Counted from the stretch's first letter, positions 7,053-7,907 are shown. The stretch: DNA of 13,555 nt from a virus (IMGVR_UViG_3300026224_000027:1-13555), one strand, 5' to 3'. Made by a program: numbers and translations. Notes: a model not told the origin generated them from the letters alone.

Positions 7053-7907
7053 TTAATTTTCATTAGATAACATTTTTCTTATTTTTTCTAAAGAATCGCT
7101 GCGCATTATTTTTTCTAAGAAGGGTTTTACAGTCTGAGCAATAGCAAAGGTGTCCTTTTCACCATCAGGGTACAAAGATACGGCAAGCACCCCTAATGAA
7201 ATTTTTCTATCTGTAGACAACTCCCAAGATAATAAGTCAATTAATGGGATTATCTTATAATCAATAATTTTACGTCGTATGCTTTCCCAACTTCCTGCAA
7301 TTGGTTTGTCTGGCTCAACAATTGAAAGTTCACTACGCCATTTTGGTAATAGTTTTGTAAACGCTTCAATCAACTCATCATCTCTGTTATGTAGTAAGTC
7401 AACAGAAACAAGCATATTATCTAATGTATCAGAAAGGAGATTCACTGGTTCACGCATCACAGCCCAAAACATCCCATTATCTTCTGATATTAAACTTCCA
7501 ACCATCTCATTATCTATGATGATTGGTTTATCCTTCCAATATCCTCTTTCCGCAGTCAGTTTATTAATCATTGATATATCAAACCTTGTTACAGGTTTAA
7601 TTCCATCATCATAACTTAGCTCAATTAACTTCGGTTGCACTTTATGGTCATATTCTTTTTGTTTATCACAAAACCAATCGTCTTCTTTCAGCTCTCCAAA
7701 TGGATCCCCGTAATTATTATGCAACGGGTATTCAGCACCAAACATAAATCCATATTCAGGCATCTCAGAATGTTTCATTGTTAAATCATCTTGTCGCCAA
7801 TATAATTGGCGAAATAGATCTTTATCCGACAAGTTTTCTAGGCAATCATATTTGCCTAAATCAAATGACTTTGGTAAATCTTTTTTACTATTTACTTTTT
7901 TCGTCAT
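7053..7907 (-). CDS. Hypothetical protein (284 aa), AT-rich cargo gene coupled to integrase
   Basis: Start ATG overlaps the int stop (ATGA at 7904-7907). Nucleotide composition visibly more AT-rich than flanking int and alpA. Acidic/lysine-rich protein with no motif I recognise; no obvious signal peptide or TM segments. Confidence 0.6.
   Translation of the reverse strand: MTKKVNSKKDLPKSFDLGKYDCLENLSDKDLFRQLYWRQDDLTMKHSEMPEYGFMFGAEYPLHNNYGDPFGELKEDDWFCDKQKEYDHKVQPKLIELSYDDGIKPVTRFDISMINKLTAERGYWKDKPIIIDNEMVGSLISEDNGMFWAVMREPVNLLSDTLDNMLVSVDLLHNRDDELIEAFTKLLPKWRSELSIVEPDKPIAGSWESIRRKIIDYKIIPLIDLLSWELSTDRKISLGVLAVSLYPDGEKDTFAIAQTVKPFLEKIMRSDSLEKIRKMLSNEN

What the first reader, a model, noticed from the sequence alone, without database searches (positions are those of the whole stretch)
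7053..7907. AT-rich 284-aa orphan gene translationally coupled to the integrase: candidate accessory/anti-phage cargo
The ORF starts with an ATGA overlap on the int stop and is visibly more AT-rich than int and alpA on either side, suggesting separate acquisition. I find no recognisable catalytic or DNA-binding motif. Mobile-element cargo positions adjacent to int often carry defence or interference functions, so this is the best candidate in the window for an undescribed function.
Basis: partly seen in the sequence, partly recalled or inferred. Interest (0 to 1): 0.7.

Follow-up and report, generated by a model that had tools for sequence, protein, structure and literature searches.

The report
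AlpA-linked hypervariable DUF6387 island gene
The AT-rich gene after the integrase is real but not an orphan: it belongs to DUF6387, a large uncharacterised family that sits directly upstream of the AlpA switch gene in several kinds of mobile islands and swaps alleles independently of the integrase, which points to an undescribed specificity, regulator or defence protein whose function is still unknown.

Summary
A 284-aa ORF lies at 7053-7907 on the minus strand. Its ATG overlaps the int stop (ATGA, 7904-7907). Its GC is 33.7%, against 48.1% for int and 48.9% for alpA.

"Orphan" is wrong. It is a full-length Pfam DUF6387 protein, from a family of at least 1,279 clusters at 50% identity.

The order int -> DUF6387 -> alpA is conserved across Enterobacterales, even at 25-40% identity. 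DUF6387 -> alpA also recurs in Pasteurellaceae islands and in ROD21-like (EARL) islands. The gene is 10-19 GC points below its neighbours in every lineage, so AT-richness is a family trait.

The slot is nevertheless variable. With near-identical int, E. coli islands carry a DUF6387 allele 29-36% identical, an unrelated hypervariable family, or nothing.

The protein has conserved ends and a variable middle. It has no catalytic motif and no PADLOC hit. A confident model (pLDDT 93) has no solved relative, only weak winged-helix-like matches.

A covariation-supported hairpin with a T-run separates it from alpA.

Best guess (about 40%): a sensor/gatekeeper of the AlpA switch, made together with Int. 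Main rival (about 30%): anti-phage or exclusion cargo. The function is untested.

The parts
7053..7907 (-). DUF6387-family gene, 284 aa, predicted acidic (pI about 5.0), with no hydrophobic (membrane-type) stretch seen on reading the sequence (no TM predictor was run). Residues 11-40 are a conserved N-terminal motif, 41-160 are variable, and 171-270 form a conserved helical C-terminal domain.
   Evidence: ORF and translation. Pfam PF19924, E = 4.6e-31, full length. Homologues. Per-position conservation. AlphaFold model pLDDT 93.4.
7904..7907 (-). ATGA overlap: the stop codon of int and the start codon of the DUF6387 gene share these bases.
   Evidence: Sequence. The same 4-bp overlap appears in the gene calls of homologous loci.
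7912..7919 (-). Shine-Dalgarno sequence (GAGAGGGA) for the DUF6387 gene, inside the 3' end of int.
   Evidence: Read directly from the sequence. Its role as a ribosome-binding site is inferred.
7904..9124 (-). P4-type tyrosine integrase, 406 aa, with Arm-DNA-bind_3 and Phage_integrase domains. It is the first gene of the int-DUF6387 operon.
9388..9416 (-). Sigma-70-like promoter match upstream of int, and a candidate promoter for the int-DUF6387 transcript. It lies outside the island's att repeat, on the rcnR side, so it may equally belong to the adjacent rcnR gene (9454-9726, same strand).
   Evidence: Consensus scan only. The number of matches in the region was not above chance. Inferred.
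9163..9189 (+). Island attachment-site core: a 27-bp direct repeat. The second copy lies beyond the left end of the window, next to thiM. It contains the tandem motif AACTGACCACACA.
   Evidence: Exact 27-bp repeat at L001 6394 and 17111. Single copy in the window, with none expected by chance.
6954..6983 (-). Conserved 9-bp-stem hairpin, followed by a T-run (6950-6953) that abuts the alpA start codon. It is probably the terminator of the int-DUF6387 operon. Its 3' arm contains the alpA Shine-Dalgarno sequence.
   Evidence: RNA fold z = -3.5. Alignments. In 16 distinct loci, 98.6% of cells are paired, 5 of 9 pairs show compensatory double changes, and 0 of 500 shuffles reach the observed values. 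It is degenerate in islands with an empty slot.
6725..6949 (-). alpA (Phage_AlpA family), the regulator/recombination directionality factor that is the constant downstream neighbour of DUF6387 genes.
   Evidence: Pfam E = 4.8e-16. Synteny.

Best explanation
SHOWN
- The ORF is a real gene of the Pfam family DUF6387. It lies in an island of about 10.7 kb, of the PICI-like phage-satellite type, inserted between thiM and rcnR.
- The island carries int, DUF6387, alpA, ylcI, an icd-like gene, a DUF4222 gene, a D5-type primase, a ClpP-protease/capsid fusion and a DUF1441 gene.
- The gene overlaps the int stop codon and has its own Shine-Dalgarno sequence.
- The int-DUF6387 unit is closed by a hairpin plus T-run that is conserved and supported by covariation. 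The hairpin sits directly in front of the alpA start codon.
- Family members always lie just upstream of alpA and in the same orientation. This holds in enterobacterial satellites (int -> DUF6387 -> alpA), in Pasteurellaceae islands and in conjugation-related ROD21-like (EARL) islands, where int is at the other end.
- The protein has a conserved N-terminal motif, a hypervariable central region rich in indels, and a conserved helical C-terminal domain.
- Alleles are exchanged independently of int.

INFERRED (my commitment)
- The protein is made together with Int in the integrated, uninduced state, and separately from the AlpA-driven programme.
- It is a non-enzymatic specificity protein, a 'gatekeeper'. 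Its variable middle recognises a variable partner, such as a protein of a helper phage, a helper plasmid or a rival element.
- Its conserved parts pass that recognition on to the AlpA/Int switch that controls excision and induction. It could do this by binding DNA near the alpA promoter or att site, or by binding AlpA or Int.
- In position and logic it resembles Stl of SaPIs or ImmR of ICEBs1. It is not homologous to either.
For: - Family membership.
- Synteny with alpA: of 60 loci with a homologue, alpA was found at most about 260 nt downstream (1,025 nt in L003, beyond a second DUF6387 copy) in all but eight, namely short or cut contigs (L028/29, L056, L076), three distant homologues (L059, L061/62) and L075 (small HTH genes instead). 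This includes homologues at 25-40% identity. It also holds in Haemophilus and Avibacterium, where int is about 5 kb away on the other strand.
- An E. coli EARL-type island reads mtfA | DUF6387 -> AlpA -> ... H-NS.
[quoted passage not shown] It is annotated DUF6387 in ICEKp258.2 (PMC10763509).
- The slot holds few kinds of gene, all with the same layout. With int at least 96% identical at DNA level, E. coli islands carry DUF6387 allele A, allele B, or an unrelated 239-264-aa family. That family also has conserved ends and a hypervariable middle. It has an HTH-like N-terminus, and two perfect GTGATATCAC palindromes lie just upstream of the alpA hairpin. This looks like alternative versions of one functional module.
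- Pairwise identities: DUF6387 tracks alpA (Spearman 0.53) better than it tracks int (0.24).
- No catalytic motif, no transmembrane segment and no known effector domain.
- Hairpin/terminator. It is degenerate where the slot is empty.
Against: - No function was tested, and no operator was found. The DUF6387-alpA spacer and the region upstream of int share no repeated motif.
- The protein is acidic overall (pI 5.0). Only the N-terminal 45 residues are basic.
- Sibling islands with a 99% identical primase and a 92% identical AlpA lack the gene. So it cannot be essential for AlpA control. The characterised Gram-negative PICIs are described as inducible through alpA, with no mention of such a gene.
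- Distant homologues in GC-rich prophage-like contigs have no adjacent alpA.
- Low GC, allele swapping, tandem paralogues (L003) and dispensability are also classic features of conflict or defence cargo.
Confidence: 0.4

Rival explanations
1. Anti-phage or inter-element exclusion cargo. The protein would be a single-gene system, made constitutively with Int. Its variable middle would sense a component of an infecting phage. The conserved domains would then block infection by binding and interference, or by causing abortive infection. It would occupy the 5' accessory region of the satellite.
For: - Position in a region described as accessory or immune (PMC11364771; 10.64898/2026.01.12.698999).
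- Presence/absence and allele replacement among near-identical islands.
- Tandem paralogues in Providencia.
- GC is 10-19 points below the neighbours in all lineages.
- Probably expressed in the resident state and insulated from alpA.
- A layout with a hypervariable central region is common in sensors.
- Almost absent from real phages (2 weak hits in 50,697 records) and from plasmids.
Against: - No hit to 5,027 PADLOC models for allele A, allele B, the Providencia paralogue or the Haemophilus homologue.
- No nuclease, NADase, kinase, protease, ATPase or membrane domain, and no fusions to such domains among longer family members.
- True cargo hotspots usually hold many unrelated systems. Here only two families and 'empty' were seen.
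- The strict position directly upstream of alpA in three classes of island, including backbone-like conservation in EARL islands, is unusual for cargo.
Confidence: 0.3
2. Accessory factor of site-specific recombination. The protein would bind Int, AlpA or att DNA and help set the direction or efficiency of integration and excision. It would act as a co-factor or antagonist of the recombination directionality factor, which would explain the translational coupling to int and the pairing with the AlpA-type RDF.
For: - The ATGA coupling to int is conserved over deep divergence.
- It accompanies the RDF in EARL islands (PMC6035254). In those islands SEN1998 (the AlpA-type RDF) alone had only slight effects on excision (PMC8844411 abstract).
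- It is the gene nearest the att site in EARL islands.
Against: - Alleles do not co-evolve with int: int 96-97% identical goes with DUF6387 29-36% identical, and the Spearman correlation is 0.24.
- Islands with the same att site and int work with an unrelated gene or none in the slot.
- In Pasteurellaceae it is not near int.
- A hypervariable middle is unexpected for a factor that acts on conserved Int and att partners.
Confidence: 0.12
3. A gene with no benefit to the island. It would be a hitch-hiking or decaying passenger kept only by linkage to int and alpA.
For: It is dispensable in sibling islands. One family member is truncated by an IS3 element (L059).
Against: - Intact full-length ORFs persist from 25% to 100% identity in many genera, with conserved motifs, one invariant residue (D224) and ten positions conserved in at least 90% of 100 sequences.
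- The start-codon overlap and the terminator are conserved.
- The structure is confidently predicted from co-evolution.
- The family comprises 1,279 clusters.
Confidence: 0.03

Closest known systems
Pfam PF19924 (DUF6387). This includes the '843-bp gene of unknown function' that accompanies the RDF in ROD21-like (EARL) genomic islands, such as KPNJ2_RS09320 of ICEKp258.2.
   Same: Full-length HMM match well above the gathering score. Similar length (250-330 aa). Same position directly upstream of an AlpA-family gene.
   Different: Nothing differs at family level. The family has no known function, fold or mechanism. In the window the gene is also translationally coupled to int. In EARL islands int lies at the opposite end.
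Stl master repressors of SaPIs, and ImmR/cI-type regulators next to int in ICEs and phages
   Same: The gene lies next to int and next to the switch gene that starts excision and replication. It diverges strongly between otherwise similar islands. It is probably expressed in the quiescent state. Its layout (conserved parts plus a variable part) is compatible with sensing different inducers.
   Different: There is no sequence or significant fold similarity. It is co-directional with int and alpA rather than divergent. No operators were identified. The protein is acidic. Many Gram-negative PICIs have no such gene. Repressor activity has not been tested.
Immune systems carried in the accessory regions of PICIs and in P4/P2 hotspots (for example Tai and the systems of Rousset 2022)
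   Same: It sits in a variable slot of a phage satellite next to int. It shows presence/absence and allele turnover, has low GC, and is a single gene.
   Different: It matches no known defence family and has no effector domain. The slot shows low diversity of families. The gene is linked to alpA even in non-satellite islands.
AlpA/Xis/TorI recombination directionality factors
   Same: It lies in the same integration module, and a winged-helix-like sub-domain is possible.
   Different: It is about four times larger and acidic. It gives no Phage_AlpA or HTH_17 match, and it always coexists with a true AlpA gene.

Membership tests
Pfam DUF6387 (PF19924) | Full-length match to the family HMM above the gathering score | tested here: met
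   E = 4.6e-31 and 108.8 bits against a cut-off of 28.9. Residues 3-272 match profile positions 2-252 of 258. RefSeq gives the same name.
Pfam DUF6387 (PF19924) | Typical genomic setting: directly upstream of an AlpA-family gene in an integrative island. This is not part of the Pfam definition; it was derived here. | tested here: met
   Window: DUF6387 stop at 7053, alpA start at 6949, same strand. Same arrangement.
Known anti-phage defence systems (PADLOC-DB v2.0.0) | Sequence match to a component of a described or candidate defence system | tested here: not met
   No family at E <= 1 for the window protein, or for allele B, the Providencia paralogue or the Haemophilus homologue.
Accessory/immune cargo of the PICI 5' region | Located between int and the regulatory module (alpA) | tested here: met
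   Gene order on the minus strand is int 9124-7904, ORF 7907-7053, alpA 6949-6725.
Accessory/immune cargo of the PICI 5' region | Variable content at that position among closely related islands | tested here: met
   With related int genes (96-97% protein identity for L021, 66-67% for L022/L023), the slot holds a 331-aa allele 29-36% identical (L021), an unrelated family (L022, L063-L067), or nothing (L023, L070). Only two families were seen.
Accessory/immune cargo of the PICI 5' region | Protection against phage infection when expressed | not testable with these tools
   Needs plaque and efficiency-of-plating assays.
Stl/ImmR/cI-like master regulator of an island | Sequence-specific DNA-binding (HTH) domain | tested here: inconclusive
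Stl/ImmR/cI-like master regulator of an island | Operator repeats in the promoter of the switch gene it controls | tested here: inconclusive
   In the 103-bp spacer only an 8-bp palindrome (CAATATTG) and an AT-rich inverted repeat (AATAAA-G-TTTATT) were found. By contrast the unrelated slot family has two perfect 10-bp palindromes.
Stl/ImmR/cI-like master regulator of an island | Derepression by a helper-encoded protein; deletion causes constitutive induction | not testable with these tools
   Needs genetics.
AlpA/Xis-type recombination directionality factor | Small (about 60-100 aa) basic winged-helix protein matching Phage_AlpA or HTH_17 | tested here: not met
   The protein is 284 aa with pI 5.0 and has no such Pfam hit. 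A separate AlpA gene is present at 6725-6949.
Gram-negative PICI-type phage satellite (the host element) | Unidirectional int, alpA and pri genes, some capsid or packaging genes, no tail or lysis genes, about 10-15 kb, flanked by direct repeats | tested here: met
   int, alpA, D5/Pox_D5 primase, ClpP-protease/capsid and DUF1441 gene. Annotation of the intact island in L001. 27-bp direct repeats about 10.7 kb apart. Helper-dependent induction was not testable.

The most novel reading that the evidence does not exclude
DUF6387 proteins, together with the unrelated hypervariable HTH family that replaces them in the same slot, would be the missing sensor layer of AlpA-controlled islands. They would be allele-specific gatekeepers, co-expressed with Int, that recognise particular helper-phage or helper-plasmid proteins and so decide which helper can trigger alpA, excision and transfer. 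This would be a Gram-negative counterpart of SaPI Stl, with a new fold. It would be shared by PICI-like satellites, Pasteurellaceae PICIs and ROD21-like islands.
Probability: 0.25. Interest if true: 0.8.

Novelty: new variant of a known kind. Interest (0 to 1): 0.55.

Why it matters
How helper phages switch on alpA in Gram-negative PICIs is still unresolved in the papers read here. What controls excision of ROD21-like pathogenicity islands, including ICEKp258.2 of K. pneumoniae ST258, is also unresolved.

This family is large (at least 1,279 clusters), has a fold with no solved relative, sits next to alpA in all of these elements, and swaps specificity-like central regions between islands. That makes it a concrete and cheap candidate to test, either for that control step or for a new single-gene anti-phage function.

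Either result would give a function to a widespread DUF. It would also explain a recurrent AT-rich gene in clinically relevant islands.

The conserved hairpin in front of alpA is a second testable element.

Tried and rejected
Searches that found nothing useful
- NCBIfam: no hit. PADLOC: no hit. PHROGs: only a partial hit to phrog_23422, of unknown function.
- A sequence profile against all PDB chains: nothing.
- The afdb50 fold library was not available. Foldseek against the PDB: nothing.
- A second word-indexed homology search with the broad alignment found no new relatives.
- The genome-contig scan returned only 7 loci.
- Domain fusions in ten longer family members: none.
- Motifs shared between the int upstream region and the DUF6387-alpA spacer: none.
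- Rfam on the whole window: no family.
- The Cell 2022 PICI-immunity paper could not be read, so its content is cited only through PMC11364771.

Ideas rejected
- 'Orphan gene': rejected because of Pfam and RefSeq membership.
- 'Recent acquisition shown by AT-richness': rejected because the GC deficit is family-wide.
- 'Homologue of the unrelated slot family': rejected because the hhalign probability is 0.2%.
- 'EcCIMP1_002 is the same gene': rejected. The paper describes it as a small UvrB-like ORF about 10% the size of UvrB.
- The 306-aa ORF at 5795-6715: an artefact of ORF listing. The RefSeq genes there are the icd-like gene and ylcI.

Full report
1. THE OBSERVATION

The window holds a 284-codon ORF at 7053-7907 on the minus strand. 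Its ATG (7907-7905) overlaps the TGA of the upstream gene (7904-9124, minus strand) as ATGA. That upstream gene is a P4-type tyrosine integrase with Arm-DNA-bind_3 and Phage_integrase domains. A GAGGG Shine-Dalgarno sequence lies 5 nt before the ATG, inside int.

Downstream, after 103 bp, lies alpA (6725-6949, minus strand; Phage_AlpA, E = 4.8e-16).

Composition:

| Sequence | GC | GC3 |
|---|---|---|
| The ORF | 33.7% | 27.0% |
| int | 48.1% | 51.6% |
| alpA | 48.9% | 42.7% |
| Whole window | 45.7% | - |

So the coordinates, the overlap and the AT-richness are all real.

2. NOT AN ORPHAN

The protein matches Pfam DUF6387 (PF19924) over its full length, with E = 4.6e-31 and 108.8 bits against a cut-off of 28.9. 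RefSeq calls it 'DUF6387 family protein' in 50 of 5,426 complete E. coli genomes, all at least 99% identical and all chromosomal.

A word-indexed search found 57 clusters, from 34% to 99% identity (only the two weakest, partial matches below 38%), in Shigella, Klebsiella, Serratia, Enterobacter, Pectobacterium, Rahnella, Citrobacter, Morganella and others. An exhaustive profile search found 1,279 representative clusters at E <= 1e-3, and 417 at E <= 1e-10.

It has no NCBIfam or PADLOC match, and only a partial match to a PHROG of unknown function. It is almost absent from true phage records (2 weak hits in 50,697) and from plasmids (4 hits in 72,556). At least two of those four plasmid hits are integrated or excised islands rather than true plasmid genes.

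3. THE HOST ELEMENT

In an intact copy (E. coli SCU-123, L001) the island lies between thiM and rcnR. It carries int, DUF6387, alpA, ylcI (opposite strand), an icd-like gene, a hypothetical gene, a DUF4222 gene, a D5-type primase, a HEPN-domain gene, a ClpP-protease/major-capsid fusion, a DUF1441 gene and one more small gene.

A 27-bp direct repeat flanks about 10.7 kb. One copy is at window 9163-9189.

This fits the published Gram-negative PICI layout of integration, Bro, replication and late zones (PMC10111431).

4. COMPARATIVE ANATOMY: A CONSTANT NEIGHBOUR OF alpA

In Citrobacter, Serratia, Enterobacter, Yersinia, Providencia, Tenebrionibacter, Klebsiella and metagenomic contigs the order is always int (about 407 aa) -> DUF6387 -> alpA. 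The 4-bp overlap with int is kept, and the gap to alpA is about 80-260 nt. This holds even for homologues only 25-40% identical.

In Haemophilus and Avibacterium islands the homologue is again directly upstream of alpA. There, int is about 5 kb away on the other strand.

In an E. coli island of the ROD21-like (EARL) type the order is mtfA | DUF6387 -> AlpA -> ... H-NS.

[quoted passage not shown] In ICEKp258.2 that gene is annotated DUF6387 (PMC10763509). A Serratia island shows the same pairing (PMC9964261).

Only very distant homologues in GC-rich prophage-like contigs lack an adjacent alpA.

5. AT-RICHNESS IS A FAMILY TRAIT

In every enterobacterial and Pasteurellaceae locus examined, the DUF6387 gene is about 7-19 GC points below its own int (10-19 in most) and further below alpA. 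For example, in Tenebrionibacter it is 36.8% against 56.4% and 55.9%.

So the low GC does not mark a recent acquisition by this particular island. It may reflect continuing exchange with an AT-rich gene pool (EARL islands are about 37% GC according to PMC10763509), or selection for AT-rich sequence. That part is inference.

6. THE SLOT IS VARIABLE, IN A RESTRICTED WAY

E. coli ETEC6335 (L021) has an island at the same site. Its int is 96-97% identical at protein level. Its alpA is 74% identical by global alignment (86% by tblastn). Its DUF6387 protein, however, is 331 aa and only 36% identical, and that only over the C-terminal half plus the short N-terminal motif.

Many locus pairs with int at least 85% identical have DUF6387 only 29-41% identical. 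Conversely, pairs with DUF6387 70% identical have int 55-57% identical by tblastn. The 36-37% figure from the global alignment is deflated, because the window int was truncated to its first ATG.

Spearman correlations of pairwise identities are 0.24 for int against DUF6387, 0.57 for int against alpA, and 0.53 for DUF6387 against alpA. The pairs are not independent.

Other islands whose int is at least 96% identical at DNA level to the L021 int (itself about 93.5% identical to the window's) carry an unrelated family of 239-264 aa in the slot. This family is also coupled to int by a 4- or 8-bp overlap. It has five alleles 32-60% identical. Each has a conserved HTH-like N-terminus, a hypervariable middle and a nearly invariant C-terminal 70 residues. 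It has no Pfam match (tested for one allele) and no PHROG match, only a marginal PADLOC hit to an HTH component (E = 0.015) for one allele, and it is not related to DUF6387. Two perfect GTGATATCAC palindromes lie between its stop codon and alpA.

Still other islands have nothing between int and alpA, including one with a 99% identical primase. Providencia has two tandem DUF6387 paralogues.

Counts in complete E. coli genomes:

| Slot content | Genomes |
|---|---|
| DUF6387 allele A | 50 |
| DUF6387 allele B | 3 |
| First allele of the unrelated family | 55 |

7. THE PROTEIN

Across 100 diverse members, residues 11-40 and 171-270 are conserved. Residues 41-160 are poorly conserved and rich in indels, with that segment ranging from 80 to 143 residues. 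D224 is invariant. P12, F15, Y20, R38, L187, R191, Y217, L225, W228 and P247 are conserved in at least 90% of sequences.

The protein is acidic (pI 5.0). No hydrophobic (membrane-type) stretch or nucleotide-binding motif is evident on reading the sequence; no dedicated predictor was run. No known catalytic domain matched, and no fusion to a known domain was found in ten longer members.

So the overall fold has no solved relative. A winged-helix-like sub-domain is a hint, not a result.

8. TRANSCRIPTION LAYOUT

Directly before the alpA ATG there is a 9-bp-stem hairpin (6954-6983) followed by a T-run.

In 16 distinct enterobacterial loci, 98.6% of cells are paired, 5 of 9 pairs show compensatory double changes, and none of 500 shuffles reaches the observed values. 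Slid controls pair at 34-58%.

The 3' arm contains the alpA Shine-Dalgarno sequence. The hairpin is present whether the slot holds DUF6387 or the unrelated family. It is degenerate where the slot is empty. In Haemophilus a separate classic terminator follows the DUF6387 gene.

I infer that int and the slot gene form one operon that ends here, so the protein is made with Int in the resident state and not as part of the AlpA programme.

A possible alpA promoter (TTGCAC, 16 nt, TAAGAT) would start transcription inside the 5' arm. That would let alpA transcripts escape the terminator. This is unproven.

9. INTERPRETATION

The facts to reconcile are these:
- strict placement upstream of alpA in three classes of island with different transfer routes;
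- coupling to int in satellites;
- dispensability in sibling islands;
- allele exchange independent of int;
- conserved ends around a hypervariable middle;
- no effector-like domain;
- a weak resemblance to DNA-binding folds;
- a slot that holds only two families with the same three-part layout, one of which has an HTH-like N-terminus and obvious operator-like palindromes next to the alpA promoter.

I commit, at about 40%, to a sensor/gatekeeper of the AlpA/Int switch. The variable middle would recognise a helper-derived or rival-derived partner. The conserved parts would act on DNA, or on AlpA or Int. This is analogous in logic to Stl or ImmR, but the protein is not a member of those families.

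The accessory status, turnover, low GC and published use of PICI ends for immune systems (PMC11364771) support it. It lacks any direct support. It also fits less well with the alpA linkage and with the low diversity of families in the slot.

A recombination co-factor (about 12%) fits the coupling to int, but not the lack of co-evolution with int. A functionless passenger is very unlikely.

10. KNOWN OR NEW

The gene and its family are catalogued, and its presence next to the RDF in EARL islands has been remarked on in print. I found no experimental test of it in the papers searched.

What appears to be new, as far as those searches show:
- the cross-element linkage to alpA;
- the family-wide GC deficit;
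- the three-part hypervariable layout and the allele swapping;
- the alternative slot family;
- the confident model with a fold that has no solved relative;
- the conserved hairpin.

Function remains unknown. Genetics and plaque assays, listed under next steps, would decide it.

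Noticed in passing
window 6950-6983 (minus strand), and the equivalent position in L002, L005, L009, L015, L021, L022, L024, L026 and others: A conserved hairpin with a 9-bp stem, followed by a T-run, lies directly in front of the alpA start codon. Its 3' arm carries the alpA Shine-Dalgarno sequence. Covariation support is strong: 5 of 9 pairs have compensatory changes and 0 of 500 shuffles reach the observed values. There is no Rfam family for it. It may both terminate the int operon and gate alpA expression.
   Followed up: yes
L022 9317-10090; L063-L067 (about 416-1211); spacer sequences printed: A second, unrelated family of 239-264 aa occupies the same int-alpA slot in E. 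coli, including O157:H7. It has an HTH-like N-terminus, a hypervariable middle and a near-invariant C-terminal 70 aa. Its alleles are 32-60% identical. It has no Pfam (one allele tested) or PHROG match and only a marginal PADLOC hit to an HTH component (E = 0.015) for one allele. Two perfect GTGATATCAC palindromes, 21 bp apart, lie between its stop codon and alpA.
   Followed up: partly
window 2945-3098, compared with L001 10139-11046: This is a second variable spot, between the capsid gene and the primase. The reference island carries a 237-aa HEPN-domain gene here, while the window has only about 150 bp of unrelated AT-rich sequence. A sibling island (L023) has an SSB gene plus a small ORF here. 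It matches the 'accessory region next to pri' described in PMC11364771.
   Followed up: partly
window 746-2658 (minus strand): The ClpP-like prohead protease/major capsid fusion is a single 1,914-bp gene in L001 and L023. In the window it is split into two ORFs (1345-2658 and 746-1324), consistent with the single 1-bp gap in the alignment to L001. This is either a frameshifted pseudogene or a sequencing error.
   Followed up: partly
window 9163-9189: The 27-bp attachment-site core of the island contains a tandem 13-bp motif, TGTGTGGTCAGTT, read on the gene (minus) strand. It lies just upstream of int and could be a binding site for the Int arm domain or for AlpA.
   Followed up: partly
L003 10001-10861 and 10866-11680: Providencia carries two tandem DUF6387 paralogues between int and alpA. 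They are 50% and 32% identical to the window protein.
   Followed up: partly
L073 (CP018459.1, whole record): A 16,971-bp circular 'plasmid' of Klebsiella pneumoniae carries int, DUF6387 (71% identical), an alpA-like gene, and capsid, adaptor and terminase genes. It looks like an excised capsid-forming PICI that assembled as a circle.
   Followed up: no
L061 4326-5354 and L062: Distant DUF6387-like proteins (18-21% identical to the Haemophilus homologue L007) occur in GC-rich prophage-like contigs. They lie next to a RelE-type toxin/antitoxin pair, cI-like repressors and antirepressor-like genes, with no alpA nearby.
   Followed up: partly
window 5795-6715 (minus strand): The 306-aa ORF listed here is probably spurious. 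In the annotated reference the region holds a 67-aa icd-like gene (5795-5998, minus strand) and ylcI (6198-6377, plus strand), with a terminator-like hairpin at 6679-6698.
   Followed up: partly
L023 and L070, int-alpA spacer (about 420 bp): Islands with an empty slot keep a degenerate relic of the hairpin loop sequence (GAACCTTAGCGAAC) about 100 nt upstream of a differently started alpA. This suggests past loss of a slot gene.
   Followed up: partly
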